This document shows, piece after piece, positions 16,476 through 39,735 of a DNA stretch of 64,000 nt (within the stretch, counting starts at the first letter, position 1; the number at the start of each line of letters is the position of its first letter). Source of the DNA: Escherichia phage BAU.Micro_ELP-22; the sequence record OR699282.2; one strand, 5' to 3'. Below the pieces are notes generated by a model, which saw nothing but the letters and a program-made list of their open reading frames with translations, ran no database searches and was not told where the DNA came from. The position numbers and the translations under genes are program-made.

Positions 16476-16476
16476 T

Positions 16477-21963: not shown

Positions 21964-22164
21964 ATGTTTAAACCGAATTCCAATGTTGGTAAGAAAGTTC
22001 AATTACTTGAAGATGTATCCACCATGAGTGGAATTTTCCCAAGAGGTCACATCATGACTATTATTGCCGAAACATCCCGTGGGTGGGATTTGGAAGATGC
22101 TGATGGTAATCGCATCCTTGAGGCTGGATTCTATGGTCATCGTGAATATAAAATCATTGATTAA
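21964..22164 (+). CDS. hypothetical small protein
   Basis: Start chosen after upstream stop; track start 21946 also possible. Confidence 0.45.
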   Translation: MFKPNSNVGKKVQLLEDVSTMSGIFPRGHIMTIIAETSRGWDLEDADGNRILEAGFYGHREYKIID

Positions 22165-22173
22165 GGATACAAC

Positions 22174-22257
22174 ATGACTTTAGAGATTGTCTTTGGTATT
22201 GTTAGCTTAGTCGTCTGTGTGGGTTGGTTTGGGTATCTGATGATTTTTGGTGATTAA
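22174..22257 (+). CDS. hydrophobic micropeptide (27 aa)
   Basis: ATG after AAGGAT; MTLEIVFGIVSLVVCVGWFGYLMIFGD. Confidence 0.3.
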   Translation: MTLEIVFGIVSLVVCVGWFGYLMIFGD

Positions 22258-22260
22258 TAC

Positions 22261-22288
22261 TTGACATAAGATATCAGTACTGTATAAT
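22261..22288 (+). promoter_or_regulatory. sigma70-like early promoter
   Basis: TTGACATAAGATATCAGTACTGTATAAT. Confidence 0.6.
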
Positions 22289-22381
22289 GTTTATATCAAA
22301 GGGAATGCAGTGAAAGGAAAGACAGCATAATCGTACTCGTCACTGCGTTCCCGCCCTTTTAAATTAAATGAGGAATTAACT

Positions 22382-22690
22382 ATGTTTCAAACTAACACTC
22401 AAGGTTTTGTAATCATCGATTTGAATCAAAACAGCGGTTATTGGATGAAACCTACTGACGCATGTATGCAGTTTGATTTTTTAGGTTACAGGATTAGTGT
22501 AAGTACTGGTGCTTCTGTACTGCGTGGTGGTTGTATCGTTGAACATCTGGTAACTGATCCAGAAGGTCGTGAGTATGAAATCGCAGGTTCGGTACAAGAT
22601 GCCATTATGTTTGTATGTCAGCGTGAAATGAATAGTTCGAATTCAAATGCACTGACTCATGCTCTTTCTCAAGAAGTGGAGGTTCGTTAA
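22382..22690 (+). CDS. hypothetical protein
   Basis: 102 codons, GAGGAA SD. Confidence 0.55.
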   Translation: MFQTNTQGFVIIDLNQNSGYWMKPTDACMQFDFLGYRISVSTGASVLRGGCIVEHLVTDPEGREYEIAGSVQDAIMFVCQREMNSSNSNALTHALSQEVEVR

Positions 22691-22941
22691 TGAAATATAT
22701 CGTAGCAGTACTCGTTGCATTTTTACTCACTGCATGTGACGCTTCAACAAAAGAACGCACAAGTGATTTTATTCTCCCTATTGAATTACAAGAAGCAGGA
22801 TGTAAGATTTATCGTATGCAAAAGGACGGTGCTGGCGTAACCTTGTATACAGTTTATTGCCCTAATGCAAATACCAGTACTGGATACAGCAGCGGTAAAA
22901 CACGAATCAATACTTCAGTGATTAATGGAGTACAACAATGA
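22690..22941 (+). CDS. putative lipoprotein
   Basis: MKYIVAVLVAFLLTAC lipobox-like signal. Confidence 0.55.
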   Translation: MKYIVAVLVAFLLTACDASTKERTSDFILPIELQEAGCKIYRMQKDGAGVTLYTVYCPNANTSTGYSSGKTRINTSVINGVQQ

Positions 22942-23306
22942 GCCTTGATACAACCCGTGCAACAGATTTATTAACTCGTATGAATAATGAAGAATTTCTT
23001 GCTGAAATAAAGTACAAGCTTGAAAAACTGGCACGAAGTGCTGAAGTAATTGAAGTTGAAGGTCACTTACCAATGGACCAATTCAATACGTTCAACGAAG
23101 ATATGGTTTATTATCCAAATGAAATTTGGATTGAGTGGGAGTCATGGACTAACAAAACTCTACGCATTGAAGGTTATTGTGTGAATTATGAATCTGAACC
23201 TGGTGATGTTACAAAAACTCTCTCCATTTGGTGTACAAAAACACATGAACTCGTTGAGGTGAATTTGAATTATATGAAAGGTTTCCGTTGGGGTGATGTT
23301 CAATGA
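22938..23306 (+). CDS. hypothetical protein
   Basis: 122-codon ORF. Confidence 0.55.
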   Translation: MSLDTTRATDLLTRMNNEEFLAEIKYKLEKLARSAEVIEVEGHLPMDQFNTFNEDMVYYPNEIWIEWESWTNKTLRIEGYCVNYESEPGDVTKTLSIWCTKTHELVEVNLNYMKGFRWGDVQ

Positions 23307-23578
23307 TTAAAAAACTATTGACAGTTGTCTTTGTATTCTGTACAATGTTTCTTACAGCATGTAATGATGACGGCAGGTTTAGTGCAAAAGACTTAGTTCG
23401 TCAGGATTGTACATTCACAGGTAAGTCTTTTATTAACGAGTATGAGGTATGTACACAATCAGGCCGTATCTGTGGTGGTTGGGAAAAACGACAGGAGCGA
23501 TTGTATGTATATGAATGCCCTGGACATCACAACAAAGTACTAAGCACACACAAACTTGTTTATGATAAGGTTGAATAA
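23303..23578 (+). CDS. putative lipoprotein
   Basis: MIKKLLTVVFVFCTMFLTAC lipobox-like signal. Confidence 0.55.
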   Translation: MIKKLLTVVFVFCTMFLTACNDDGRFSAKDLVRQDCTFTGKSFINEYEVCTQSGRICGGWEKRQERLYVYECPGHHNKVLSTHKLVYDKVE

Positions 23579-23793
23579 TGACTACCAATGAAATGATGCA
23601 GGTTATTTGGGATAAAGGTTGTGATATTAAAATCACTAGTACTGATGTTCGTGTATTCAAAACTGAATATATGGAGTACTTGGACCTTGATACTTATAAT
23701 AATATTGTATCAATTGAACACAAAGGTGCAGTACTGGAAACCATTGACGTAGTACTCAAGAAAGCTACCGACCTATTAGGAGTGGCAGTGTGA
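23578..23793 (+). CDS. hypothetical protein
   Basis: 71-codon ORF. Confidence 0.5.
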   Translation: MTTNEMMQVIWDKGCDIKITSTDVRVFKTEYMEYLDLDTYNNIVSIEHKGAVLETIDVVLKKATDLLGVAV

Positions 23794-23944
23794 ATAACAA
23801 AGAGTGGGAAGATTACCGCAAGAAGTGCAGGGAGTTTGATAAAGAACTTACTGGTACAGTGAATGCAGTAATGTGGGTATCTGTAATTATTGCAGTTCTT
23901 GCGTTGGGTGCTATTATTATTAATAAATTATTCTAAGGACTAAT

Positions 23945-24145
23945 ATGTTTACTTTATATCTTGCAGTAGTACTAACTAATGGTGAAATCACTCGCACCGT
24001 TGGTGAAGGTGTATATAAAACACCTGATCAGTGTTACTCTGCAACTCATTGGCCTCGTGATGCTGGTGATGAATCTCGCACTGAATACAAATGTATGAAG
24101 GTTAAAGGTGACTTTGTAAATCTAAAGGTTATTGAGACTAAGTAA
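23945..24145 (+). CDS. small secreted protein
   Basis: 66 codons, hydrophobic N-terminus. Confidence 0.5.
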   Translation: MFTLYLAVVLTNGEITRTVGEGVYKTPDQCYSATHWPRDAGDESRTEYKCMKVKGDFVNLKVIETK

Positions 24146-24663
24146 TGGATATTAATGAGTTGTTGAAATTAGTGTTTAATCGTGAACGCCGCGATACAAG
24201 ACCAATTGAATATCAAGATGTGATACGCATTGAAACTGATTTCTGTTATGGTAAAACAACTCATGACCTTTTGAATCTCTCTGGAAAACGCTATGCTGAT
24301 GTTTGTTTTTCAGAGAGAAGTGATGGTTCAGAAATAACGAGTACTGATATTGTTTGTTACGCACGCAGTGCTGATAAATCTTATGAAATAGAACTTATAT
24401 ATTCCCCTAGTTCTAAAACAAATCATCACCGCCATATTTTATATGATGTTTACACACCACCTGGTATTGCTGAATATTTTGTTATTGATTATAGTACTGA
24501 AGAAAATGTGTTTCAACAAAGTTTGATTCATAACTTTGAGGTTAATGATCCATTAGTGCCAAAGTTATTCAAACTACTTGACACCATCGATGTTGATTTT
24601 GAATTTGTTATGTGTATTAGAACTTCTTTATTCAATGAATTCATGGAACTTTTTAATATATGA
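24145..24663 (+). CDS. hypothetical protein
   Basis: 172-codon ORF. Confidence 0.55.
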   Translation: MDINELLKLVFNRERRDTRPIEYQDVIRIETDFCYGKTTHDLLNLSGKRYADVCFSERSDGSEITSTDIVCYARSADKSYEIELIYSPSSKTNHHRHILYDVYTPPGIAEYFVIDYSTEENVFQQSLIHNFEVNDPLVPKLFKLLDTIDVDFEFVMCIRTSLFNEFMELFNI

Positions 24664-24881
24664 ATAGATACTATGTTGTGTATGAACACGTCTCTGAATT
24701 TAATAACATACGAGGTTATTCCAGAGTTGTCACAAAGATGGATGTATTCATTCGTGCTCTTAGTGAAGTGGATGCACTGTTTAAATTGTTTGATGAAATT
24801 ACAAAGTATAACACACCCAAAACACACCGCTATGTGGAAACTGTACATAGCATTATACTAACTGAAAGTGATGAGGAATGA
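24660..24881 (+). CDS. hypothetical protein
   Basis: 73-codon ORF. Confidence 0.5.
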   Translation: MNRYYVVYEHVSEFNNIRGYSRVVTKMDVFIRALSEVDALFKLFDEITKYNTPKTHRYVETVHSIILTESDEE

Positions 24882-24884
24882 TAA

Positions 24885-25103
24885 ATGAATTTATATCTAG
24901 TTGAAGGTTTAGTACAAGTCTATAAACCAGAAGGTGAAGGTCAACGTTTTTCACACGTAGAAGAATTTAAGTACGTTGTACAGGCTGATGGTCAGTACGA
25001 TGCGGAAATTCAAGTAGATGAATCATTCCGTAAGAAAAATGAAATTGGTAAATTTCAATACCAGAACTTACAATATAAAGTATGGCCTAGTATAAATGAC
25101 TAA
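24885..25103 (+). CDS. hypothetical protein
   Basis: 72-codon ORF. Confidence 0.5.
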   Translation: MNLYLVEGLVQVYKPEGEGQRFSHVEEFKYVVQADGQYDAEIQVDESFRKKNEIGKFQYQNLQYKVWPSIND

Positions 25104-25311
25104 GATGTGGTGGTGTCATGGTGTATATAACGTGTATGTAAATGGTAGATATAAAATGTCTAGTACCTATGCAAGACGTGTTAATGCGAACAACCAAGTT
25201 GATGCTGCTTGTGAGATCATTGAGTGGTATGCTGAGTTCAATGCACCTGACTATATGTACGAAATAGTTACAATAAATGTTGTACAAATCGATACATCTT
25301 TGATACAATAA
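25096..25311 (+). CDS. hypothetical protein
   Basis: 71-codon ORF. Confidence 0.45.
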   Translation: MTKMWWCHGVYNVYVNGRYKMSSTYARRVNANNQVDAACEIIEWYAEFNAPDYMYEIVTINVVQIDTSLIQ

Positions 25312-25343
25312 CCACATCAAAAAAATTGCATCTGAGGATACTT

Positions 25344-26006
25344 ATGTTAGTTAATCTTAATTTCATCACTTCACCTGACTGGGCATTACGTGGAGTTTCT
25401 TTAAACTTCAAGGAAACTATGTTTGACTACATTGGTGAGTGTACATTGGTAAATGCAACTTTTGATCCAAATCATCCGTTTTGGGCTGAAATTCATGATC
25501 CAAATGTAAACAACAATACATCTGTTATGACTATTGTCCAGACTAAACATGCAGGTATCCTTGCAGGTTATCGACCTGCACATGCAATTGAACACTTCAC
25601 TGATTACGATGTCGTGGATGAATACCCAATGATCCATGAAGATGGAAGTCTATACACATCTGAAGACTTCCGTGCTATCTTTAATAGTACTGATGATATT
25701 CTACCAAGTGGACGTCCACGTCCTGAGTCTTATCTTATGCATCCATCTTATGGTGTAGCAGATACGCTTGAACAGATTATGAATAAGTACAAGAACCTAA
25801 TTGAAGGTCCAGAAGAAATTGTCCTGTGCTATCACCCAGTACTGAAGTCTGAACAACCAAAGGATGGTGGATGGCGTTGGCATAAGAATGGTGAGTATAT
25901 CGGTACTAAACGAAGTAAAGAACGTTTTGAGTACTTGTATGATGAGCCAGATGTTGATGTGGTTTTGTGTTATAATTTTATTAAGGTGAAAAAGAAATGT
26001 ATCTAG
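25344..26006 (+). CDS. hypothetical protein
   Basis: ATG after GAGGAT; track ORF 25326 begins at a TTG. Confidence 0.6.
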   Translation: MLVNLNFITSPDWALRGVSLNFKETMFDYIGECTLVNATFDPNHPFWAEIHDPNVNNNTSVMTIVQTKHAGILAGYRPAHAIEHFTDYDVVDEYPMIHEDGSLYTSEDFRAIFNSTDDILPSGRPRPESYLMHPSYGVADTLEQIMNKYKNLIEGPEEIVLCYHPVLKSEQPKDGGWRWHKNGEYIGTKRSKERFEYLYDEPDVDVVLCYNFIKVKKKCI

Positions 26007-26239
26007 TACTAAGTTTTGTTGTTGCACTATTGTTTATGTTCTATCCTACACTAGTGGCATTAGCCACTAGGCGAACGATGGTAGATCTCACTACTGTATT
26101 CTTGCTAAACGTGGCATTAGTACTGGTGTCTATTATCATTCCAGTGAGCTTTACAGTTATTGATATTATTTCGGTATTACTCTTCGTGTTAAGTTATCTT
26201 ATGCTTATTGAAGAAACAAATGTTGACAAACGTTCGTAG
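25997..26239 (+). CDS. small membrane protein
   Basis: 80 codons, two hydrophobic segments. Confidence 0.5.
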   Translation: MYLVLSFVVALLFMFYPTLVALATRRTMVDLTTVFLLNVALVLVSIIIPVSFTVIDIISVLLFVLSYLMLIEETNVDKRS

Positions 26240-26250
26240 TACTGTATAAT
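26223..26250 (+). promoter_or_regulatory. sigma70-like early promoter
   Basis: TTGACAAACGTTCGTAGTACTGTATAAT. Confidence 0.55.
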
Positions 26251-26297
26251 GGTTCCTGTAGTCTGAAACTTAACACTTAAACTTGAGGTAAAAAAAT

Positions 26298-26624
26298 ATG
26301 CTATCAGTACTAATTTCAATTCCGTCTTTAATTCTGATTTGGCTTCTGGTTTACGAATGCTTTATTACTGATGATAATGATAAAAAAGAGTTCTCTGAGT
26401 TGTTTATGCTTGATTCACCGATTGTGCGTATTTTCTATACAGTCGTTGTGGTTTCAGTAATTGTATGGATTTTGAGTTTTATCTTCCCACTCGGTGCAGT
26501 AGTTAAAACTTTGGATTTAGTTGAGAACTTTGTTGCAATTATGTGGCTAATCAAAGCACTATTTGCAGGAAATGTTAAAATTTGGATTGATATTATCAAA
26601 TTCAAGTTCACGAATAAGATGTAA
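26298..26624 (+). CDS. membrane protein
   Basis: 108 codons, hydrophobic. Confidence 0.55.
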   Translation: MLSVLISIPSLILIWLLVYECFITDDNDKKEFSELFMLDSPIVRIFYTVVVVSVIVWILSFIFPLGAVVKTLDLVENFVAIMWLIKALFAGNVKIWIDIIKFKFTNKM

Positions 26625-26702
26625 CAGTGAAAATATCTCTATAGTATTAAATACTTCTGTACATATATATAGTACAGAAGTATTTCTCGTTAGAGGTTTG
26701 TT

Positions 26703-27062
26703 ATGAAGAGTTATATAAAATTAATAGCACTTGTGTGTGCATTATTTTCATGTTTTAGTTATGGTGCAGCAGCAGAAACATATTGTCGTAGTACTAAGGG
26801 AACGTGGCATGTATTGACTAACGACCCTAGAAATGGTAAAAATATAGTTGTTGATGGTGTGATTTATCGTTTTAAAGTAGAAAGTATTATCGGTAATAAA
26901 AAAATCTCGACTTATAGAGATGATTCTGGTACATTAGCAAACGTAATATTAATTGTAGACCCAAGAACTGGTAATGGTGATATCTATATAGTAATTTACT
27001 TGGACTCATCGGTACGCCGTGACCTAGATATAGATAAATTGAACTTACACTGTGAAATATAG
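26703..27062 (+). CDS. secreted protein with signal peptide
   Basis: MKSYIKLIALVCALFSCFSYGAAA; related to 27453 product (shared IY..DG..Y.F motif). Confidence 0.55.
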   Translation: MKSYIKLIALVCALFSCFSYGAAAETYCRSTKGTWHVLTNDPRNGKNIVVDGVIYRFKVESIIGNKKISTYRDDSGTLANVILIVDPRTGNGDIYIVIYLDSSVRRDLDIDKLNLHCEI

Positions 27063-27072
27063 GACTTAAAAA

Positions 27073-27450
27073 ATGGTAAACACTATTTTACTTTTGTTGT
27101 TGAATATTCCAATTATTCTGTCTTTTTTAATTTCTATTTTTATGGCAGGATATTGTTTAGTTGCAGTAATTCATTTCATTTTAACAAACAAATATGTCCT
27201 AATTTCTAAGCTTGATTCTATTTTTGCTTGCGATTCGATTGCTTATAACTTGTGGTTAATTTGTTCTTGCATTATGGGAGTAACTTTCCTTCTGTATGTA
27301 TTTGATGTCCTTGACCAAAAGTTCGTATACATCAGTACTGGATTGGCTCTTTATCCTGCTACGTGGTACTTGATTTACGTTGGTGATATATGGTATAGTA
27401 CTTATAAAGAATATCAGTACAAGAAATCACTTAACGTTGGAGGAAAATAA
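27073..27450 (+). CDS. membrane protein
   Basis: 125 codons, hydrophobic. Confidence 0.55.
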   Translation: MVNTILLLLLNIPIILSFLISIFMAGYCLVAVIHFILTNKYVLISKLDSIFACDSIAYNLWLICSCIMGVTFLLYVFDVLDQKFVYISTGLALYPATWYLIYVGDIWYSTYKEYQYKKSLNVGGK

Positions 27451-27452
27451 TC

Positions 27453-27803
27453 ATGAAAATTATTTTATTTTTTGTATGTATGTTAATGTGTGGATTGTCA
27501 TATGCTGAACCATTGGAAGGTTTAGTTTGTACAGATGGTAATATTAAACATATCTATCAAGGTGATAGTGACAATCGAGATATTGTATATATTGATGGAC
27601 AATCATATACGTTTGTTAAAGAGCATACAGTAGGCGACATTAGCTTCACTGAGTTTTCTAACGACACAGACCCTAACTTCTTAGCGTTTATTGAAGTAGA
27701 TGTATATGAAGATAGTAATGGCACACAATATGCTAAATTAGTTATGATGCGTCGTGGTGCTAAAGAAACTAGTTTTGGTGGCTTGTGTAAATATAAGGAT
27801 TGA
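27453..27803 (+). CDS. secreted protein with signal peptide
   Basis: MKIILFFVCMLMCGLSYA signal; paralog-like to 26703. Confidence 0.55.
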   Translation: MKIILFFVCMLMCGLSYAEPLEGLVCTDGNIKHIYQGDSDNRDIVYIDGQSYTFVKEHTVGDISFTEFSNDTDPNFLAFIEVDVYEDSNGTQYAKLVMMRRGAKETSFGGLCKYKD

Positions 27804-27807
27804 TATT

Positions 27808-27999
27808 ATGTTGATTTATCAAAGTGATAATATTCGTGTTATGCAGCATCCCTACTTACAAATCTTTGATGTGCAGCAGTATATGGAAGGTGATGACCCA
27901 AGAACCTATGGTCGTAAGTATGATTACTTCACTGTAAAGCAGTGTAAAAATATTAACGAAGTACGACAATTAGTTCAAGAACTTCAAAACAAAGGTTGA
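27808..27999 (+). CDS. hypothetical small protein
   Basis: ATG after AAGGAT; track ORF 27754 trimmed. Confidence 0.45.
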   Translation: MLIYQSDNIRVMQHPYLQIFDVQQYMEGDDPRTYGRKYDYFTVKQCKNINEVRQLVQELQNKG

Positions 28000-28025
28000 C
28001 TTCGGTCAGCCTTTTTTGTTATAAT
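27991..28025 (+). promoter_or_regulatory. terminator-promoter stem-loop cassette (PeSL-like)
   Basis: AAAGGTTGAC-TTCG-GTCAGCC + T6 + TATAAT; -35 TTGACT lies inside the stem. Confidence 0.65.
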
Positions 28026-28053
28026 TCTCTTAATAAATTAGAGGATTTTAATT

Positions 28054-28494
28054 ATGTATGTATATCGTTTTGAACTTAAATTTAGTTACATTGAACCTAA
28101 CTTAGATCCTGCACGAACTGTAGGTCCGTTTGCACGGTATTCAACTAGATACAGTACTAAAAATGGATTTGACCGTTTGTGCATGACCACACCTTCGCAA
28201 TTCCAACCAGAACCAACTGAAGATGGAATCTATTCAATCAAACGTGGCTGGGTATTTGGCTGTCAAAGTTTGAAAGATTTGTTCAGATTCTTCACTATGG
28301 ACTTGGGTAAATTGCATCGTGCTGGGTTTGCTATATCTGTATATGAAGTTCCAGACCACCATGTAGACATTGGTCGTAATCAGGTTCAGTACTATTGCGG
28401 TAGTGCTAAATTAGTTCGTATCATGTCAGTTAAGGAAGCAAAGGATGAGTTCCGACAAAGTAAAAGAGAAACACATGAGGTAATATATGGATAA
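28054..28494 (+). CDS. hypothetical protein
   Basis: 146 codons, GAGGAT SD. Confidence 0.55.
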   Translation: MYVYRFELKFSYIEPNLDPARTVGPFARYSTRYSTKNGFDRLCMTTPSQFQPEPTEDGIYSIKRGWVFGCQSLKDLFRFFTMDLGKLHRAGFAISVYEVPDHHVDIGRNQVQYYCGSAKLVRIMSVKEAKDEFRQSKRETHEVIYG

Positions 28495-28831
28495 AACTCA
28501 AATAGAATTAAAGAAATTTGTTTCATTCTATTTTCCTGATGACCCACGTAATTCACAAAAAGATATTGAATATTATAATATCCTATCTAAACAGTTAATG
28601 AGAAAGTTTCAACAGTGTTTAACTATATTCAATACAGATGGAAGACGTAGATACCGAATCGTTTCAATGAATGATGAAAACGCAAATTTCTTTGATTACG
28701 ATGTAGTTTTTAGAGCATATAATGATGATCGTATAAAATTAAATTATGATCAAATTATACTTGACCTGAATGTTATATGTGTTATAATCACTCACGTAGC
28801 CGAACTTAATGGTTTTAAAGAATGGTATTGA
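28487..28831 (+). CDS. hypothetical protein
   Basis: 114-codon ORF. Confidence 0.5.
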   Translation: MDKTQIELKKFVSFYFPDDPRNSQKDIEYYNILSKQLMRKFQQCLTIFNTDGRRRYRIVSMNDENANFFDYDVVFRAYNDDRIKLNYDQIILDLNVICVIITHVAELNGFKEWY

Positions 28832-28845
28832 ATAGAGGATAACAT

Positions 28846-29112
28846 ATGAAGCTTAAATTACAATATAATGGATTTACTTTACGTAATGATACTGAATTTA
28901 TTAATCGTTCTCCTGGTGCTGAACTGTTTTTACGAGAGATGAACATTCCTTTCATCATTACTACAGTGGGCGACCGTGAAGTTCTACAATATGCAGAGCA
29001 TCCGATTATTGATGTTCCTTGGTACTCTGAGCATATGTACATGGATATGGCACGTCGCTACAACTGTAAGTTCGTAGTTGAAGGTGATAAAATTACAGTC
29101 GAATTTAAATAA
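28846..29112 (+). CDS. hypothetical protein
   Basis: 88 codons, GAGGAT SD. Confidence 0.5.
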   Translation: MKLKLQYNGFTLRNDTEFINRSPGAELFLREMNIPFIITTVGDREVLQYAEHPIIDVPWYSEHMYMDMARRYNCKFVVEGDKITVEFK

Positions 29113-29124
29113 GGTAAATTAAAA

Positions 29125-29418
29125 ATGATCAGTACTTCAGTTAATGAAAGCATCGTCGCTGACGTAGAAATGGTTAAAGAATGTGCAGATGAAACTCTTC
29201 GTGATATGTACATTAATGATTTAATTACTGAATACGGTAGTCGTGGTGTACACGAATTTATTCGTTTAAGTGGAGAGTTGATGAAAAATCGAATTCGTAT
29301 GAAGCTTAACGTACATCCAAAAGCATGGGCATTTACATTAAAATACGCAGAAGATATTGTGAATTTGCGTCGAACTGAAGTATATGAACGTTTGCACAAT
29401 GGTATGTTAGATAAATGA
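29125..29418 (+). CDS. hypothetical protein
   Basis: 97-codon ORF followed by terminator. Confidence 0.5.
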   Translation: MISTSVNESIVADVEMVKECADETLRDMYINDLITEYGSRGVHEFIRLSGELMKNRIRMKLNVHPKAWAFTLKYAEDIVNLRRTEVYERLHNGMLDK

Positions 29419-29426
29419 TTGTAAAA

Positions 29427-29456
29427 AAGGAATTCTTAAATGAATTCCTTTTTGTT
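29427..29456 (+). terminator. rho-independent terminator
   Basis: AAGGAATTC-TTAAAT-GAATTCCTT then TTTT. Confidence 0.7.
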
Positions 29457-29470
29457 TATAAGGTATAGTA

Positions 29471-29692
29471 ATGAAATATATAGTACTTGTACTGATATTA
29501 TTCAGTACTGTTGTAAGTGCTAAACAAAAAGAATATGTTAAATGTATAAATTATGAAGAGAAATATGTTGAAACATATAAAAAAAGTATAATTAAAAACG
29601 TTTCGATTACTAACAGAGCAACAATCATTGTACTTAAAAATGGGTTAATTATGCTATATAAACCACACGTTAAATGTGAAATTATTAATTGA
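29471..29692 (+). CDS. small secreted protein
   Basis: MKYIVLVLILFSTVVSA signal. Confidence 0.5.
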   Translation: MKYIVLVLILFSTVVSAKQKEYVKCINYEEKYVETYKKSIIKNVSITNRATIIVLKNGLIMLYKPHVKCEIIN

Positions 29693-29699
29693 GGAAATT

Positions 29700-30272
29700 A
29701 TGAATCGTAAAGGTCGTTTTAAAGTATCAAAAAAGAACAAAAGTTCTAGGTTTAAACCTATTGTTTTAACAGTTAAATCTAACAAAGATTTAACTGCACT
29801 TAGTAAAAAGATAATTTCATCTAAGATTGAAGTATCATACGTAAATTCATTAAAATATATGAATGTCAAACCACTGGACCAACTCATTTCACTTATATTT
29901 GAACGTAATGATTTTGAGATATCAGTAGATGATTATAGAGCCTATAATGCTGGTTTCATTAATGTTACTTGTAATAAAAAACTAACTGAGTTGGAAAATT
30001 TGTCATGTATAATAAATCTAGATAAAGGTGTTGTGAAGTACCATTTTGTACATTTCACTAATATCAATAATGGAATGGGTGTACAATCCAGACCTATAGT
30101 GCCTACGTGTGATGTTACTAAATTAGCAAAGCTCAATGATGAAGAATATTTTCAAGAAAGCATTGTAACTGAGCATTTAGATGATATAATAGCTACTTAC
30201 AAAGAATGCATATGGGTGTTGAATGCTATAAAACCTAAATTGTGTTTAATGAATATTGTTCGTGATTTATGA
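29700..30272 (+). CDS. hypothetical protein, FQxSTV-motif family
   Basis: ATG after GAGGAA; contains DEEYFQESIVTEHLDDII. Confidence 0.55.
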   Translation: MNRKGRFKVSKKNKSSRFKPIVLTVKSNKDLTALSKKIISSKIEVSYVNSLKYMNVKPLDQLISLIFERNDFEISVDDYRAYNAGFINVTCNKKLTELENLSCIINLDKGVVKYHFVHFTNINNGMGVQSRPIVPTCDVTKLAKLNDEEYFQESIVTEHLDDIIATYKECIWVLNAIKPKLCLMNIVRDL

Positions 30273-30285
30273 ATGGGGAATCGTA

Positions 30286-30729
30286 ATGAGTTGGGTAAAT
30301 GTTAATAGTATTGAACTTAACGAACAAGATATTTTTGCATTTGTAAATTTAACTAATAACACAGTACTAAAAGGGCGTTTGTTCAGTGCTAGTGATGGGT
30401 ACAAATGGATCTCTTTGATGGATGATAGTGGTGTGATTTATAATGTAATGCAATTACCCCAATGGGTATATAGTAACACTGCTGACGATGTTCTTACCGC
30501 AGTTATGCGTGAGTTTGAAAAACTCCCAGGTGGTGATATCAAAAACAAAGTTTTTAATGCAGAACGTAAAAATTATACAGCACAGCAATTGGAATCCCTT
30601 GCCATTGCTGCTTATCAAGCTGCTATTAAGAAGCCAGAGTGCGTTATTCTTAAGTATGTACCAGACTTAAAACTTACGTTGGAAGACATGGATGCATTCA
30701 TTTTTACATCTGAACTTGATCAGTACTAA
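30286..30729 (+). CDS. hypothetical protein
   Basis: In-frame ATG just after upstream stop. Confidence 0.55.
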   Translation: MSWVNVNSIELNEQDIFAFVNLTNNTVLKGRLFSASDGYKWISLMDDSGVIYNVMQLPQWVYSNTADDVLTAVMREFEKLPGGDIKNKVFNAERKNYTAQQLESLAIAAYQAAIKKPECVILKYVPDLKLTLEDMDAFIFTSELDQY

Positions 30730-30844
30730 TTTAACTTTGGGACAACCATTCTTATTATGATATAATGTTTTATGTCATTCGATATAAATGACAACGGAAC
30801 TATAAATATTATAGTAAAATTTATCTCTTATAGGAGTTATAAAA

Positions 30845-31228
30845 ATGGTTGATAAATGGAATAAGAAAGATCCATCACATGATGTTGATATTTCTGGTCT
30901 AGACAATGCACATAAGCACAAGTATCTAGATTCACTAGGTCTTCTAAAACCAGACCAAAGTCTTGCACATGATCGTCCATCCCGTGAAAAAGCATTTAGC
31001 CTAGAATCACTAGGTCATGAGCTTAATCGTGTGTTTGAGGATCACCCAATCTATGTACGTGATATTATCGAGAAACTTAAAGTAACTCCTAAAGAGCACT
31101 TTAAAGCAACTGTACACTCTGCATTCCGTGCATTACATGAATCTCTAAAGAAAACTCACAATCTTCGTAAAATTCATGATGAAATCGTGAATGCTATCGA
31201 AAGTGAAAAACATAAGTTCAAGAAGTAA
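30845..31228 (+). CDS. hypothetical basic protein
   Basis: 127 codons; LDSLGLLKPDQ motif shared with 31475 product. Confidence 0.55.
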   Translation: MVDKWNKKDPSHDVDISGLDNAHKHKYLDSLGLLKPDQSLAHDRPSREKAFSLESLGHELNRVFEDHPIYVRDIIEKLKVTPKEHFKATVHSAFRALHESLKKTHNLRKIHDEIVNAIESEKHKFKK

Positions 31229-31230
31229 TA

Positions 31231-31268
31231 AAAAGGGTTGACTAAGGTCAGCCCTTTGTTGTATCATA
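31231..31268 (+). promoter_or_regulatory. terminator-promoter stem-loop cassette (PeSL-like)
   Basis: GGGTTGAC-TAAG-GTCAGCCC + T-run + TATCAT. Confidence 0.6.
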
Positions 31269-31296
31269 ACTTCTCAATATAACTGAGGTATCATAT

Positions 31297-31410
31297 ATGC
31301 AAGGTTTAAAATTTGTAGTTGCTGCACTCATCGCCGCAGTACTGGTTGGTGGTGTATTCTATGTAGTGGATCAAAAAGTAAATCCACCTGCACAAGAACA
31401 ATCTACGTAA
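31297..31410 (+). CDS. hydrophobic micropeptide (37 aa)
   Basis: ATG after TGAGGT; MQGLKFVVAALIAAVLVGGVFYVV..; bracketed by two PeSL-like elements. Confidence 0.35.
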   Translation: MQGLKFVVAALIAAVLVGGVFYVVDQKVNPPAQEQST

Positions 31411-31417
31411 CAAAATA

Positions 31418-31450
31418 AGGTTGACTTCGGTCAGCCTTTTCTTTATACTA
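31418..31450 (+). promoter_or_regulatory. terminator-promoter stem-loop cassette (PeSL-like)
   Basis: GGTTGAC-TTCG-GTCAGCC + T-run + TATACT/TATAAATA. Confidence 0.6.
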
Positions 31451-31474
31451 TAAATATAGACATAGAGAAAAAAA

Positions 31475-32752
31475 ATGAAATCTATGGAGAGAAATCAAAT
31501 GCCAAGTAATTTTACTGATAAAAATGGTGGTAACATGGCTGGTCACTCTGATAAATGGAGTGAACGCAACCGCCGTCCAAATAGTTATCAAGCAGGTCAA
31601 GGTTCACGTGGGTCACGTAATCAAGGAACTGGTCTAGCTGGTAAAGCAAACGCAGAAGCAGGTGAAGTTAAGAGTACTGAGAACATGACTGAGCTAGAAA
31701 AGCTACGTTATGTTAATTCATTGGGACTTCTTAATGCTACACAAAAACAACGTCTAGCTGATATGGAACGTGAAGAAAAAGAAAAATCTGCTCCTGCTAA
31801 AGAAGAACCAAAACAAGAAGCACCAAAGGCGGTTAACCCTGTCAAAGAACTGTCGGATAAGTTAGGTAAGATTTTTGCTAATAAACCACAACTTATCCAA
31901 GGTATTGTGAAAGAATTGCAATCTGTACCTAAAGAAGAATTAAAAGTCAAAGCACAAGCTGTACTTGATGCAATGAGTGGAAATACCAGTACTGAACCAA
32001 CTGAAGTATTCAGTACTATAATGCGTGCACTTGAAGGTACGCAACAAGGTGATGTGCCTGCACAAGAGGAAGTAAGTCTTGAAAGCGTACTTAAAACATT
32101 TGATAGTATTGGTAAAGAAGACCGTGCTAATGCTCAACAAGTTAAGAATGTACTAGCTAAGTTAGAAAACCGTCTGGAAGGTAAAGACGATAAGATTAAA
32201 TTAGTATCTGATGCAGTTAACGATGCACTTAAATCTTATGTACAAGGTGAAAAGAGTCGTTTTGTAACTGCAATGGATGCTGCATTCAATACTATGAAAA
32301 AGTATGAAGCTGATCATGGTGAGAAGGTTACACGAGATGGTTATCTGATGCGTGATGATGAAGAAGGTGCAGTAGAACAGAACGATGTTCATTCAGACGA
32401 AGAAATTGATGACATGGAAGCTGAACTGTCACAAGACCGCCAAATGACTGAAAAATCCCATAACGAACTACAGAAATTAATGCAATGGGTTGCAGATGTT
32501 GGTGAAAAAGCTGGTGCTGATAAGAAGAGTATAAACCGAAATCTTAGTTGGATTAAAGATAAAGTTGGTAACAACGCTCGTAAACTACAAAAAGCGTGGA
32601 CTGATGTAGTGAATGGTGCTGTTGATATTGATGTTGAATCCGGTGAGGCATATGATTATGCATTGACTACACTTGATGACTCTTTCCGTGATTACGAAAA
32701 TGGAAATGTAACTCCTTGGGAAAAGGACATCATGAGCAAATACGGTAAATGA
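31475..32752 (+). CDS. hypothetical charged coiled-coil-rich protein
   Basis: 425 codons, GC-richer, K/E-rich; N-terminal YVNSLGLLNATQ resembles 30845 product. Confidence 0.65.
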   Translation: MKSMERNQMPSNFTDKNGGNMAGHSDKWSERNRRPNSYQAGQGSRGSRNQGTGLAGKANAEAGEVKSTENMTELEKLRYVNSLGLLNATQKQRLADMEREEKEKSAPAKEEPKQEAPKAVNPVKELSDKLGKIFANKPQLIQGIVKELQSVPKEELKVKAQAVLDAMSGNTSTEPTEVFSTIMRALEGTQQGDVPAQEEVSLESVLKTFDSIGKEDRANAQQVKNVLAKLENRLEGKDDKIKLVSDAVNDALKSYVQGEKSRFVTAMDAAFNTMKKYEADHGEKVTRDGYLMRDDEEGAVEQNDVHSDEEIDDMEAELSQDRQMTEKSHNELQKLMQWVADVGEKAGADKKSINRNLSWIKDKVGNNARKLQKAWTDVVNGAVDIDVESGEAYDYALTTLDDSFRDYENGNVTPWEKDIMSKYGK

Positions 32753-32756
32753 TAAA

Positions 32757-32795
32757 ACAAAAGGTTGACTTCGGTCAGCCTTTTTTTGTAAATAC
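32757..32795 (+). promoter_or_regulatory. terminator stem-loop cassette (PeSL-like)
   Basis: AAAAGGTTGAC-TTCG-GTCAGCC + T7. Confidence 0.6.
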
Positions 32796-32823
32796 AAAAG
32801 AGGAATTAAGAAGAGGGATTACA

Positions 32824-33075
32824 ATGAAAAAATATATTATATTTGGAATTGTATTATTTTCCAGTACTGCTTATGGTGCAGATTATCATTGCTCCGTAGC
32901 AAGGCAGGATTTCAGAAATGGGGAGTTCTATACTACCTCATACACAAAAGGAATAATACACGACACCGACAGAACTATTGGATTTAATGTGTTTGACAAC
33001 AAAGATTCATATACTTCAGGTATACTATCTGAGCATAAGACTGATGTAATGGGAATAGAAAAAGAGTTCCGGTGA
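32824..33075 (+). CDS. small secreted protein
   Basis: ATG after AGAGGG; MKKYIIFGIVLFSSTAYGA signal. Confidence 0.5.
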   Translation: MKKYIIFGIVLFSSTAYGADYHCSVARQDFRNGEFYTTSYTKGIIHDTDRTIGFNVFDNKDSYTSGILSEHKTDVMGIEKEFR

Positions 33076-33085
33076 TTCAGTAGTA

Positions 33086-33409
33086 ATGTGCAATGACATT
33101 GAAAGTACTAAAACAATTTATTATAATAATGAACGTAACTATCGTTTTCATAATTTAACCACAAATAAAAGTTTACTATTTTACAATTGTAAAGAAGTAA
33201 TACTCCCATCAGACAATAGCTGTACTCCAACTAATCAACCCCCAGCACAATGTAATACTCCCTCTGAACCTGATAAAAATAAAAAAGACAAAGATAAAGA
33301 TAAAAAAGAAGACAAAAAACCTTTAAAAGATAAAAAGAAAGATAAAAAACCTAATCCGTTTAAAAATAATAAACCAGCACAACCCGATATGACATGTAAA
33401 ATAAAATAA
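33086..33409 (+). CDS. hypothetical Lys/Asp-rich low-complexity protein
   Basis: 107 codons with KDKDKDKKEDKKPLKDKKKDKK tract. Confidence 0.5.
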   Translation: MCNDIESTKTIYYNNERNYRFHNLTTNKSLLFYNCKEVILPSDNSCTPTNQPPAQCNTPSEPDKNKKDKDKDKKEDKKPLKDKKKDKKPNPFKNNKPAQPDMTCKIK

Positions 33410-33418
33410 GGATATATA

Positions 33419-33838
33419 ATGAAAAAGATTTTTTTAAGTATTATTTTAGTACTTTTTAGTTTTAATGTATATGCAGCAGATGCTAAACAGGTTGCAAATA
33501 CAGTAAAAGATGTTATAGTAGATAATGCTCCTACATTAGAGGAAATTGGGGTAAAAACTTGTGATATAGTAATATATAATTTAGTTAATGATGAACGAGT
33601 TATGTTGAATACGTATGAACAAGTAGTCCCATTGGTTGAATCTGGTGATGCTTTTAGCTTTACATATAAAGTTAAATTAACAGGAGGGGTTGAAGTTAAT
33701 CTTGACATTGATACCGCTTCAGTACTAAAAGATAAACTAGGATATGTGTTCAATCGTATTCGTGAAGAAGGTCATCTTAAGTATGTTTATGAAAGTAAAA
33801 TACTAAAACGTGCAATAGTTATAGAAAACTGTAAATGA
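33419..33838 (+). CDS. secreted protein with signal peptide
   Basis: MKKIFLSIILVLFSFNVYA signal. Confidence 0.55.
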   Translation: MKKIFLSIILVLFSFNVYAADAKQVANTVKDVIVDNAPTLEEIGVKTCDIVIYNLVNDERVMLNTYEQVVPLVESGDAFSFTYKVKLTGGVEVNLDIDTASVLKDKLGYVFNRIREEGHLKYVYESKILKRAIVIENCK

Positions 33839-33841
33839 TAA

Positions 33842-33878
33842 TAAAAGGGTTGACTTCGGTCAGCCTTTTTTGTTATGA
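33842..33878 (+). promoter_or_regulatory. terminator-promoter stem-loop cassette (PeSL-like)
   Basis: AAAAGGGTTGAC-TTCG-GTCAGCC + T6 + TATGAT. Confidence 0.6.
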
Positions 33879-33907
33879 TGTTGGTATTAACTACAGAGGA
33901 TAAAGTA

Positions 33908-34549
33908 ATGACTAAGCAAGACATATTCAAAACTTTAATTGACATTTTGCGTCCATCAAAAACTCGTTGTGCGATGGAGTTTGATATTCCTTATGCTGAA
34001 CGCGTAATCTTTCCACAAGTTAAAGCTGCTGGACTTACTTTGCTTGGAATGGGGATGTACTCTGTAGTAGTTGAACATAAAAACTATCCTGGACGTGCAT
34101 TTAAAGTAACCACTTCACGCTGGGATGGTTTTCGTGCTTATGCAAAGTACTGCATTGAAAACGCAGGAACCAAGTTTCTTCCAGTGATCTACAGTGCCAA
34201 CGAACAAGGAAACTTTGGATGGTATGAGATGGACAAGTACTATCCTATAATTAAACAAAAAAATAATTATGATGACTTTGTTAGTACTAAAATTGGAGAT
34301 TTATATTCTTATGCACATGCTGGTCAGTACGCTACTTCAGTGAATGATATGCGTGGTAATTCTGAAGAGATTGCTATTGCAACGGTCGCTGCTAACATCA
34401 TGAAAGAGTTTCACGGGCGTTTTGTACCAGACATTCATTCCAGTAATGTCATGATGGATAAAGATGGCAATGTATTCATTACTGATCCTCTTTCGTGTGA
34501 TGTACGTAGAGAAATACCAGTTACTGAAGAAGATCCAGTTTTTTATTGA
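33908..34549 (+). CDS. hypothetical protein with kinase/phosphotransferase-like motif
   Basis: ATG after AGAGGA; DIHSSNVMMDKDGNVFITDP resembles APH/protein-kinase catalytic loop (weak). Confidence 0.55.
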   Translation: MTKQDIFKTLIDILRPSKTRCAMEFDIPYAERVIFPQVKAAGLTLLGMGMYSVVVEHKNYPGRAFKVTTSRWDGFRAYAKYCIENAGTKFLPVIYSANEQGNFGWYEMDKYYPIIKQKNNYDDFVSTKIGDLYSYAHAGQYATSVNDMRGNSEEIAIATVAANIMKEFHGRFVPDIHSSNVMMDKDGNVFITDPLSCDVRREIPVTEEDPVFY

Positions 34550-34894: not shown

Positions 34895-35233
34895 ATGGAA
34901 CAATATTTTGAATTAATAAACAAAGTATCATTTTATGTAGTATCTTTGGTTTGGGTGTATTATATGTTTTGCTACATTATTGCATTCTTCCGATACACTA
35001 CTTTATATGAACGTATCTACTATGATGCCCCAATTTCATTCTTGATGTTTTGTGCATGTACGTGGGGAATATTAGAAGTACTGATATGTGGGTATAGTAC
35101 TGATGAATTAAATCTGGTATCGGTCTTGACTGGGTTTTCATTTGTTGTTATGATAGCTGCCGTTCCAGTATGGTTGTTCTTTGGACTAGTTCATCGCATT
35201 GATATATGGCGTTCTAATATCCCTGAAAAGTAA
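34895..35233 (+). CDS. membrane protein, small multi-TM paralog family
   Basis: 112 codons; C-term RSNIPEK parallels 35237 and 35586. Confidence 0.55.
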   Translation: MEQYFELINKVSFYVVSLVWVYYMFCYIIAFFRYTTLYERIYYDAPISFLMFCACTWGILEVLICGYSTDELNLVSVLTGFSFVVMIAAVPVWLFFGLVHRIDIWRSNIPEK

Positions 35234-35236
35234 GGA

Positions 35237-35584
35237 TTGGTAATGATTTATTACACTAACATGTTTGCCTATGCTGTTGCTTGCATTTACATTGTTTACT
35301 TCTTATTCGGTGGAGTACTGTGCTTCTTTAAGTACAAAACGTTGTTCAACCGAATGTACCCAAATCATCCAATTGTAGTTGTACTTTTGATTCTTTCAGT
35401 TTCTCAAATAATCGTTGAAACTACAATGGGTATCAGTAGTGTACATTATAGTTTTGGCACTATAGTAATTATTACTATGCTTATTGCATACATTTTAGTA
35501 CTTGGATATGGTATCTTTGGTAATATTGGTATGAAAATGTATCATCGAATTAAAACATTACGTGATAATCTACCGGAGCGTTGA
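35237..35584 (+). CDS. membrane protein, small multi-TM paralog family
   Basis: 115 codons; C-term RDNLPER. Confidence 0.55.
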   Translation: MVMIYYTNMFAYAVACIYIVYFLFGGVLCFFKYKTLFNRMYPNHPIVVVLLILSVSQIIVETTMGISSVHYSFGTIVIITMLIAYILVLGYGIFGNIGMKMYHRIKTLRDNLPER

Positions 35585-35585
35585 T

Positions 35586-38416: not shown

Positions 38417-38453
38417 AAAAGGGTTGACTTCAGTCGGCCCTTTTTGCTATAAT
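38417..38453 (+). promoter_or_regulatory. terminator-promoter stem-loop cassette (PeSL-like)
   Basis: A9-GGGTTGAC-TTCA-GTCGGCCC + T5 + TATAAT, then conserved leader CATTTCATC..GAGG. Confidence 0.65.
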
Positions 38454-39699: not shown

Positions 39700-39735
39700 A
39701 AAGGGTTGACTTCGGTCAGCCCTTTTTGCTATAAT
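39700..39735 (+). promoter_or_regulatory. terminator-promoter stem-loop cassette (PeSL-like)
   Basis: AAAGGGTTGAC-TTCG-GTCAGCCC + T5 + TATAAT; near-identical to 38417 and 41421 copies. Confidence 0.7.

What the first reader, a model, noticed from the sequence alone, without database searches (positions are those of the whole stretch)
22690..33838. Concentration of small secreted, lipoprotein and membrane proteins
Within ~11 kb there are at least two lipobox proteins (22690, 23303), five signal-peptide proteins (26703, 27453, 29471, 32824, 33419) and several tiny membrane proteins (25997, 26298, 27073, 31297). Early-expressed envelope-targeted micro-proteins in phages are typically superinfection exclusion, lysis-inhibition or receptor-masking factors.
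Basis: inference. Interest (0 to 1): 0.4.

Follow-up and report, generated by a model that had tools for sequence, protein, structure and literature searches.

The report
Exported small proteins of a jumbo phage
An 11-kb stretch of an E. coli jumbo phage (Asteriusvirus) really does encode an unusual concentration of small lipoproteins, secreted proteins and membrane proteins, carried in swappable promoter/terminator cassettes and evolving fast; they probably guard or remodel the infected cell's envelope, but none can yet be assigned to a known exclusion family.

Summary
The window is an Asteriusvirus jumbo coliphage (98.6% identical to phage JP4). All 11 named genes show the predicted signals by explicit rules, and diverged orthologs keep them. 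Cleaved-signal proteins are 7 of 30 genes in the region against 1 of 116 elsewhere (p about 6e-5, post hoc). TM-only proteins are not enriched.

The genes lie in sigma70-type transcription units. Five copies of a conserved hairpin terminator/promoter cassette (PeSL-like) bound slots whose gene content differs between relatives. Envelope genes evolve about 3x faster than neighbours but stay under purifying selection. The lipoprotein module was swapped by recombination. None of their annotated phAPEC6 homologs is among that phage's virion proteins. Two interleaved genes (30845, 31499) are late virion proteins.

This is an ordinary kind of phage region holding uncharacterised families. Interest is moderate.

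The parts
22261..22288 (+). Perfect sigma70 consensus promoter (TTGACA-16-TATAAT) in the gap before 22382. Inferred start of the unit that carries both lipoprotein genes.
22690..22941 (+). 83-aa lipoprotein (LTA|C, Asp at +2). Member of the widespread phage family phrog_902. The mature domain of about 67 aa has two conserved Cys.
23303..23578 (+). 91-aa lipoprotein (LTA|C) with four conserved Cys in the mature domain. Restricted to Rak2-like jumbo phages (41 records).
23790..23936 (+). 48-aa protein with one C-terminal TM segment.
25997..26239 (+). 80-aa membrane protein with 2 predicted TM segments.
26223..26250 (+). Perfect sigma70 consensus promoter. Inferred start of the operon 26298-27999.
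26298..26624 (+). 108-aa membrane protein with 3 TM segments.
26703..27062 (+). 119-aa secreted protein, paralog of 27453. Cys near the mature N-terminus and near the C-terminus.
27073..27450 (+). 125-aa membrane protein with at least 2 TM segments.
27453..27803 (+). [not shown]
27991..28025 (+). Hairpin cassette: UUCG-tetraloop terminator with the -35 TTGACT inside the stem, followed by TATAAT.
29471..29692 (+). 73-aa secreted protein (VSA|KQ) with two conserved Cys.
30845..31228 (+). Interleaved late gene for a virion protein (phAPEC6 gp037c, found by mass spectrometry). TATAAATA lies 36 nt upstream. Not part of the envelope set.
31233..31267 (+). Hairpin cassette (terminator plus TTGACT-18-TATCAT).
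31297..31410 (+). 37-aa single-TM micro-protein, monocistronic between two cassettes. This slot holds 0, 1 or 3 genes in different relatives.
31417..31449 (+). Hairpin cassette, immediately followed by a late-type TATAAATA motif.
31499..32752 (+). Interleaved late gene for a virion protein (phAPEC6 gp035c, found by mass spectrometry). Not part of the envelope set.
32760..32790 (+). Hairpin cassette. It lies inside the longer ORF that JP4 annotates, which argues for the 32824 start.
32824..33075 (+). 83-aa secreted protein.
33419..33838 (+). 139-aa secreted protein (VYA|AD) with two conserved Cys. Found only in this phage lineage.
33845..33879 (+). Hairpin cassette (terminator plus TTGACT-18-TATGAT) ahead of the kinase gene.

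Best explanation
The region is part of the accessory ('hyperplastic') gene block of an Asteriusvirus jumbo coliphage, probably expressed early. The block is built from modules bounded by composite hairpin-terminator/sigma70-promoter cassettes.

Inferred mechanism: after infection, host sigma70 RNA polymerase transcribes these units. Seven products are exported by Sec. Two are lipid-modified (22690, with Asp at +2, would be retained in the inner membrane facing the periplasm). Five are cleaved by signal peptidase I and probably disulfide-bonded in the periplasm. Five more small proteins insert into the inner membrane.

Most likely role (inferred): a battery that alters the infected cell's envelope to keep out competing or superinfecting phages, and possibly to protect against or time cell-wall breakdown. 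The duplicated barrel proteins 26703/27453 would bind a periplasmic target such as a peptidoglycan hydrolase. The lipoproteins and TM proteins would act on envelope machinery.

Shown: the export signals and their conservation, the enrichment, the cassette architecture, fast but constrained evolution, module exchange, and absence of the annotated phAPEC6 homologs from that phage's virion list.

Inferred: expression timing, cellular location, and every functional step.
For: Identity of the phage. Export signals by explicit rules and their retention in diverged orthologs. Enrichment of cleaved-signal proteins, 7/30 vs 1/116. Lipobox Cys invariant and two more Cys conserved across 102 family members in six or more phage lineages. 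Conserved Cys pairs in the mature domains of the secreted proteins.

Consensus sigma70 promoters and 8 hairpin cassettes against 0 expected by chance, all intergenic and all on the + strand, folding at -12 to -17 kcal/mol with z about -4.4 to -5.2. The cassettes are conserved as far as Salmonella phage Munch and bound gene gain and loss. PeSL precedent: PMC2839356 and PMC4122927. The suspected early region in relative CBB contains the sigma-factor gene.

Median dN 0.243 for envelope genes vs 0.084 for neighbours (p = 9e-4), with dN/dS 0.23 vs 0.15, all below 1. The lipoprotein module 22000-23750 is 98-100% identical to fEgEco12 in an otherwise JP4-identical backbone. In this block only gp035c and gp037c are virion-associated in phAPEC6.

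Against: No expression data exist for any Asteriusvirus. Two genes in the region are late virion genes.

No homology to any characterised exclusion, lysis-inhibition or defence protein. The Cor hit vanishes without the leader, and Llp matches only residues 1-18. No Imm, Sp or RI families were found, and PADLOC found nothing.

Faster evolution could reflect weaker constraint rather than an arms race, and dS is near saturation for several genes. Signal predictions are rule-based, not from SignalP or LipoP. Both lipoprotein genes and the 26703 homolog are unannotated in phAPEC6, so they could not have been detected in its virion proteomics.
Confidence: 0.45

Rival explanations
1. The envelope proteins serve the phage's own infection cycle by reprogramming host envelope physiology: transport, cell-wall or division machinery, stress responses, or neutralising membrane-associated host defences. 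On this view they do not act against other phages.
For: The same evidence for early-type promoters, export and absence from the virion list applies. The phrog_902 lipoprotein occurs in phages that use very different hosts, and lies among replication and early genes, not near adsorption genes. This fits a conserved envelope target better than a specific receptor. In one Vibrio phage its neighbour is PagP-like, an envelope-modifying function.
Against: High divergence and module swapping between near-identical phages infecting the same species fit an antagonistic, variable target better than conserved host machinery. No homology to any known host-takeover protein was found.
Confidence: 0.25
2. 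Some of these genes are lysis components: the lipoproteins as o-spanins, and the small TM proteins as holins, antiholins or i-spanins.
For: One source names a family member 'putative spanin'. In phage 4MG the homolog follows a gene matching phrog_6073 'Rz-like spanin'. Small TM proteins are compatible in size with holins.
Against: No conserved TM or coiled-coil partner exists: neighbours are unrelated in the 8 genomes examined, and 6 have no TM neighbour at all. The mature domains are predicted beta-rich and not proline-rich (2 Pro in 68 residues). The promoters are sigma70/early type rather than late. No holin, endolysin or spanin PHROG matched any window protein.
Confidence: 0.1
3. The concentration has no common function. 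It is a chance accumulation of unrelated ORFans in a recombination-prone region, and hydrophobic N-termini are simply common among small AT-rich ORFs.
For: TM-only proteins are not enriched here. The region boundaries were chosen post hoc. The proteins belong to at least six unrelated families. Membrane-protein arrays occur elsewhere in the window.
Against: Cleaved-signal proteins are 7/30 vs 1/116. All genes are under purifying selection (dN/dS 0.1-0.5). Signals and Cys pairs persist at 40% identity. The same kind of cluster, with one shared family, is present at the syntenic site in the distant phage Munch.
Confidence: 0.15

Closest known systems
T5 Llp and T1/phi80 Cor superinfection-exclusion lipoproteins (PMC9586334)
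   Same: Small phage lipoproteins (60-70 aa mature) with an intramolecular Cys pair, made by lytic phages, apparently early, and facing the periplasm. Annotators of phage fEgEco12 labelled the homologs 'lytic conversion lipoprotein'.
   Different: There is no homology beyond the leader peptide. The genes are not downstream of a receptor-binding gene but lie among early or replication genes in every lineage checked. The window protein has Asp at +2, which by the E. coli sorting rule (my own knowledge) predicts inner-membrane retention, whereas Llp and Cor act at the outer membrane. One of the three fEgEco12 proteins with that label (the 32824 ortholog) has no lipobox at all.
MliC/PliC periplasmic lysozyme inhibitors and Brucella PhiA (PMC2267010, PMC8334348)
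   Different: No sequence or profile similarity. No SGxxY motif in the equivalent loop. Foldseek does not rank the family. PhiA, the member that also lacks SGxxY, showed no inhibition in vitro. The phage proteins are encoded by a phage, not a bacterium.
T4 Spackle (gp61.3) and Imm (PMC7677548, PMC7650644)
   Same: Spackle and Imm are early T4 proteins that cause superinfection exclusion: Spackle is periplasmic and inhibits the tail lysozyme gp5, and Imm is a small inner-membrane protein. This is the functional model proposed here for the secreted barrels and for small TM proteins such as 25997.
   Different: No homology: no PHROG match to either family. The predicted fold of 27453 is all-beta, whereas I recall Spackle being helical (own knowledge, not checked here).
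PeSLs (promoter-early stem-loops) of T4-type hyperplastic regions (PMC2839356, PMC4122927)
   Same: A composite stem-loop terminator plus strong sigma70-like promoter, repeated in intergenic gaps of a variable small-ORF region, bounding insertions, deletions and replacements between related phages.
   Different: Here the -35 hexamer lies inside the stem and the loop is a UUCG tetraloop. The host is a Rak2-like jumbo phage, not a T4-type phage. Promoter and terminator activity and mini-circle formation were not tested.

Membership tests
Llp/Cor exclusion lipoproteins | Lipoprotein signal with lipobox Cys | tested here: met
   22690 has LTA|C and 23303 has LTA|C. The Cys is invariant in 102 family members.
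Llp/Cor exclusion lipoproteins | Sequence homology of the mature domain to Llp or Cor | tested here: not met
   The Cor PHROG hit (E = 9e-4, residues 1-49) disappears once the leader is removed. The family profile matches Llp 8a60_B only over residues 1-18, at E = 4.3.
Llp/Cor exclusion lipoproteins | Gene directly downstream of the receptor-binding or tail-tip gene | tested here: not met
   Neighbours are small hypothetical, replication or early genes in the window and in seven other phage genomes.
Llp/Cor exclusion lipoproteins | Outer-membrane location and blocking of a receptor | not testable with these tools
   Asp at +2 (C-D-A) suggests inner-membrane retention by the E. coli sorting rule (own knowledge). 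The +2 residue is mixed across the family.
Llp/Cor exclusion lipoproteins | Structural similarity to Llp | tested here: inconclusive
   The AF2 model has pLDDT 59.7 and Foldseek gives no hit with E below 5. AF2 is also reported to mispredict Llp itself.
o-spanin (Rz1-like) | Adjacent, overlapping or embedded i-spanin partner gene | tested here: not met
   No TM or coiled-coil neighbour in the window. Neighbours are unrelated across 8 genomes. Only 4MG has a gene labelled Rz-like.
o-spanin (Rz1-like) | Short, proline-rich, largely unstructured mature domain | tested here: not met
   2 Pro in 68 residues (22690) and 1 in 72 (23303). Beta strands are predicted for 22690.
MliC/PliC (COG3895, PF09864) | Export to the periplasm by a Sec signal or lipobox | tested here: met
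   27453 has SYA|EP and 26703 has a cleavable leader. Both are retained in orthologs.
MliC/PliC (COG3895, PF09864) | Eight-stranded antiparallel beta-barrel | tested here: inconclusive
   [not shown]
MliC/PliC (COG3895, PF09864) | Conserved disulfide stabilising the barrel | tested here: inconclusive
   There are conserved Cys in the first strand and in the last strand, the same placement as YQCDEK...NNCQLQ in E. coli MliC. The Cys-Cys distance in the model was not measured.
MliC/PliC (COG3895, PF09864) | SGxxY lysozyme-binding motif | tested here: not met
   No SGxxY in the alignment. A conserved N-G-x-x-Y sits in a different loop, between strands 6 and 7.
MliC/PliC (COG3895, PF09864) | Detectable sequence or profile homology | tested here: not met
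   Pfam finds nothing, the profile search of PDB sequences finds nothing, and HHalign against E. coli MliC gives 2.5% probability.
PeSL-type regulatory cassette | Composite stem-loop terminator plus sigma70-like promoter, repeated in intergenic gaps | tested here: met
   8 copies against 0 expected, all intergenic, each with a -10 box 16-18 nt after the -35. Stems fold at -12 to -17 kcal/mol.
PeSL-type regulatory cassette | Cassettes bound insertions, deletions and replacements between related genomes | tested here: met
   The slot around 31297 holds 0, 1 or 3 genes. The 32824, 33086 and kinase units are present or absent as cassette-bounded modules.
PeSL-type regulatory cassette | Demonstrated promoter and terminator activity; mini-circle formation | not testable with these tools
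   These require reporter assays and inverse PCR, as in PMC2839356.
T4 Imm / Spackle | Sequence homology | tested here: not met
   No PHROG match to either family for any of the 13 exported or membrane proteins scanned.

The most novel reading that the evidence does not exclude
The duplicated secreted proteins 26703 and 27453, with a remote homolog in Salmonella phage Munch, are phage-encoded periplasmic inhibitors with an MliC/PliC-like barrel. They would neutralise peptidoglycan hydrolases, for example the tail lysozymes of superinfecting phages. That would be an independent, structurally unrelated reinvention of T4 Spackle-type exclusion, with the two paralogs aimed at different enzymes and the flanking TM proteins acting as partners.
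Probability: 0.12. Interest if true: 0.65.

Novelty: new member of a known kind. Interest (0 to 1): 0.4.

Why it matters
Jumbo phages of this group are being proposed for therapy, and more than 80% of their genes have no assigned function. This region gives a defined, testable shortlist of 12 small envelope-targeted genes. These are the most likely carriers of phage-phage exclusion, lysis control or envelope remodelling, traits that affect cocktail design and host range.

Two items have wider reach. First, phrog_902 is a stand-alone disulfide-containing lipoprotein found in at least 530 phage genomes from six or more lineages, with no known function. Second, a PeSL-like cassette system operates outside the T4-type phages, which extends that mechanism of modular gene shuffling.

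Asteriusvirus and Vequintavirinae, which both carry phrog_902, are among the phage groups most often found persisting in E. coli isolates (bioRxiv 10.1101/2024.12.31.630880). This is only a correlation, but it makes envelope or exclusion functions worth testing.

Tried and rejected
- **Cor homology of 22690.** The PHROG hit came from the leader peptide and is lost without it.
- **TrbK entry-exclusion lipoprotein.** The NCBIfam hit (E = 0.03, residues 4-43) is below threshold and falls mainly in the leader.
- **Precomputed Pfam tag PF16225.** It is attached to all phrog_902 hits but was not reproduced by a direct hmmscan of six members at E up to 10.
- **Structure of 22690.** AF2 with 102 sequences gave pLDDT 59.7, and Foldseek against the PDB found nothing meaningful.
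- **33419.** An exhaustive HMMER search found only its own lineage plus two proteins of about 2,000 aa. Their scattered sub-threshold Pfam matches point to repetitive or compositional similarity.
- **A duplicated two-gene TM+SP module at 26298-27803.** Only the secreted proteins are paralogs (HHalign 95.5%). The TM proteins are not related.
- **26703 as a third lipoprotein.** The LFSC motif is not conserved in orthologs.
- **afdb50 fold search.** The library was not available.
- **PADLOC.** No hits.
- **Pfam on ten non-envelope genes of the region.** Nothing significant.
- **Genome papers on JP4, fEgEco12 and Sharanji.** None discusses lipoproteins, signal peptides, superinfection or timing.


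Full report
**Source.** The window is from an Asteriusvirus-type jumbo coliphage. Region 22000-34500 is 98.6% identical over its full length to Escherichia phage JP4 and 96-98% identical to SP27, phAPEC6, PBECO4, 121Q, G17 and Sharanji. More distant relatives (fEgEco12, Turkey5, Salmonella phage Munch) cover it only partly. Public annotation calls nearly every gene here hypothetical. phAPEC6 does not annotate either lipoprotein gene or the 26703 homolog. The fEgEco12 record labels three of the genes 'lytic conversion lipoprotein', but its paper does not discuss them.

**Observation.** I called genes across the whole window, giving 146 genes with strand blocks taken from GC skew. I then applied explicit rules for lipoboxes, SPase-I signals and TM segments.

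There are two lipoproteins (22690, 23303), five secreted proteins (26703, 27453, 29471, 32824, 33419) and four small membrane proteins (25997, 26298, 27073, 31297). A further 48-aa C-terminally anchored protein lies at 23790.

Orthologs from fEgEco12 and Turkey5, which are 41-77% identical, keep the leader's n-h-c architecture while its sequence changes, and keep the Cys residues of the mature domains. The pseudo-lipobox of 26703 is not conserved, so that protein is SPase-I type.

Cleaved-signal proteins are 7 of 30 genes in the region against 1 of 116 elsewhere (Fisher p = 5.7e-5). TM-only proteins are not enriched (p = 0.49). The test is post hoc and the boundaries are not natural, because envelope genes also occur at 15044-17321, 34895-35930 and 42323-45103.

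**Transcription architecture.** Perfect TTGACA-16-TATAAT promoters sit in the gaps at 22261 and 26223.

A conserved element, AAAGGGTTGACTTCGGTCAGCCCTTTTT followed by a -10 box, occurs 8 times in the window against 0 expected by chance. All copies are on the + strand, each just after a stop codon and roughly 35-60 nt before the next start. Five of the eight are inside the region. Each folds into a UUCG-tetraloop hairpin at -12 to -17 kcal/mol (z about -4.4 to -5.2) followed by a U-run, with the -35 hexamer inside the stem.

The same element is present in JP4, fEgEco12, Turkey5 and Munch, where it was annotated as a terminator. It bounds variable slots. The slot containing the 37-aa gene 31297 holds 0 genes in Turkey5, 1 here and 3 in fEgEco12. 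The units carrying 32824, 33086 and the kinase come and go as whole modules.

This matches the PeSL concept described for T4-type hyperplastic regions (PMC2839356, PMC4122927). In the relative CBB, RpoD-like promoters cluster in the short-ORF block containing the phage sigma-factor gene, which those authors suspect is the early region. In this window the sigma-factor homolog is at 18913-19878, just upstream.

There is one exception. The only two T4-like late motifs (TATAAATA) upstream of any gene in the window precede 30845 and 31499. Their phAPEC6 homologs, gp037c and gp035c, are virion proteins by mass spectrometry. None of the annotated homologs of the envelope-directed genes appears in that list.

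**Evolution.** Against fEgEco12, envelope genes have median dN of 0.243 against 0.084 for their neighbours (p = 9e-4), and dN/dS of 0.23 against 0.15 (p = 0.004). All values are well below 1. The dN trend is the same against Turkey5; the dN/dS difference there is not significant. dS is close to saturation for several genes, so the ratios are rough.

At the nucleotide level the window equals JP4 almost everywhere. The exception is 22750-23250, which is 86-89% identical to JP4, while 22000-23750 is 98-100% identical to fEgEco12. The module holding both lipoproteins has therefore been replaced by recombination. The deepest divergence valleys against fEgEco12 coincide with 26250-27750 and with 32500 onward, which are the secreted/membrane gene clusters.

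In the distant phage Munch, the syntenic block between the sigma-factor gene and the kinase also holds a lipoprotein (the 23303 homolog), secreted proteins and small TM proteins. It includes a remote homolog of 26703/27453 (hmmsearch E = 1.2e-5 in a small local database) in a TM-SP-TM arrangement.

**The 22690 lipoprotein.** It matches phrog_902 (unknown function) both with and without its leader. Its weak match to the Cor exclusion family is lost when the leader is removed.

tblastn finds it in 530 phage records covering Asteriusvirus, Eneladusvirus, Vequintavirinae, Felixounavirus, Schitoviridae and Demerecviridae. A profile search finds 148 protein clusters. All 102 aligned members have a canonical lipobox, and 87 have exactly two further Cys. 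Cys38 is invariant, and P30, V55, C57-P58-N59, T62 and K70 are nearly invariant.

The family profile matches T5 Llp only in the leader. The AF2 model is poor and gives no fold match. The gene lies among early or replication genes in every lineage examined: between DNA polymerase and ligase in Felix-O1-like phages, and between the origin-binding protein and a helicase in a T5-like Vibrio phage. It is never next to a receptor-binding gene, and it has no conserved neighbour.

That fails the positional and homology criteria for Llp/Cor (PMC9586334), and fails the partner and composition criteria for o-spanins. The window protein has Asp at +2. By the E. coli lipoprotein sorting rule (my own knowledge) this predicts inner-membrane retention. 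The +2 residue is mixed across the family.

**The 26703/27453 family.** The two proteins are paralogs (HHalign 95.5%). The family is confined to this phage lineage, with 21 clusters. One Cys follows the leader and another lies within the last six residues.

Against membership: Foldseek ranks a different lipocalin-like barrel first and finds nothing significant. Profile and sequence searches find no link. The SGxxY motif that binds the lysozyme active site is absent. PhiA, the fold member that also lacks it, did not inhibit in vitro (PMC8334348).

I therefore describe these proteins as periplasmic, disulfide-clamped 8-strand barrels of the lipocalin/MliC-like class. The peptidoglycan-hydrolase-inhibitor idea, a functional analogue of T4 Spackle (PMC7677548), is a hypothesis at roughly 12%.

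**Other proteins.** 23303 occurs only in Rak2-like jumbo phages (41 records). 29471, 32824 and 33419 match only lineage-specific PHROGs. An exhaustive search with 33419 found only its own lineage. There are no meaningful Pfam or NCBIfam matches and no PADLOC matches.

**Verdict.** The most likely reading (about 0.45) is an early, modular, fast-evolving battery of envelope-directed proteins used in phage-phage competition or control of cell-wall breakdown. Host envelope takeover for the phage's own cycle is the main rival (about 0.25). The kind of region is well known from T4-type phages; the families themselves are uncharacterised.

Noticed in passing
window 27991-28025, 31233-31267, 31417-31449, 32760-32790, 33845-33879, 38419-38450, 39701-39735, 41422-41455: Eight copies of a conserved UUCG-hairpin terminator with an embedded -35 and a downstream -10 (PeSL-like cassette). 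The element is conserved as far as Salmonella phage Munch and bounds gene gain and loss.
   Followed up: yes
window 30800-30845 and 31440-31499: The only two T4-like late-promoter motifs (TATAAATA) upstream of any gene in the 64-kb window precede 30845 and 31499, two paralogous proteins that are virion-associated in phAPEC6. These are late genes embedded in an early-type block.
   Followed up: partly
window 22000-23750: Mosaic segment: 98-100% identical to fEgEco12 but only 86-94% identical to JP4, within a backbone otherwise about 100% JP4-like. The two-lipoprotein module has been replaced by recombination.
   Followed up: yes
window 32749-33075; L012 (phAPEC6) 1541-1789, 2157-2429 and 5475-5924: Annotation problems in public records. 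JP4 starts the 32824 gene at 32749, which runs through the hairpin cassette and buries the signal peptide. phAPEC6 leaves both lipoprotein genes and the 26703 homolog unannotated.
   Followed up: partly
window 15044-17321: A second envelope cluster upstream of the flagged region: a 151-aa lipoprotein (Cys17) followed by three membrane proteins (15499, 16477, 16896).
   Followed up: no
window 34895-35930 and 42323-45103: Tandem arrays of about 112-aa proteins with three TM segments: three clear paralogs (HHalign 99.9%), then eight more similar-sized genes. Together with the 26-28 kb block they explain the T-rich dips in AT skew.
   Followed up: partly
window 47014-58628 (- strand): An array of about eleven paralogous genes of 245-400 aa, annotated 'DNA condensation protein' in Munch. 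Proteins with that annotation in phAPEC6 are virion-associated by mass spectrometry.
   Followed up: no
window 59161-63935 and 1523-3613: Long tandem arrays of about 60-aa paralogs: two families of 14 and 6 copies at the right end, and a 5-copy family at the left end.
   Followed up: no
window 33908-34549: A T7 gp0.7-like protein kinase gene, preceded by a hairpin cassette. It is absent at this position in fEgEco12 and Turkey5 and present in Munch, so it behaves as a cassette-bounded accessory module.
   Followed up: partly
window 33086-33409: A 107-aa protein with a Lys/Asp-rich low-complexity tail and several Cys but no signal peptide, lying between two secreted-protein genes in the same unit. 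Role unknown.
   Followed up: no
L007 (Vibrio phage BUCT194) 2013-2453: The gene next to the phrog_902 lipoprotein in this N4-like Vibrio phage matches a PagP-like lipid A acylation PHROG (E = 1e-14), another envelope-modifying accessory gene.
   Followed up: no
proteins P0001-P0120 (phrog_902 family): Every hit carries a precomputed Pfam tag PF16225 that a direct hmmscan of six members does not reproduce. It is likely a faint or outdated assignment.
   Followed up: yes
phrog_902 distribution compared with bioRxiv 10.1101/2024.12.31.630880: Asteriusvirus and Vequintavirinae, which both carry the phrog_902 lipoprotein, are among the groups most often found as persistent virulent phages in E. 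coli assemblies. This is only a correlation.
   Followed up: no
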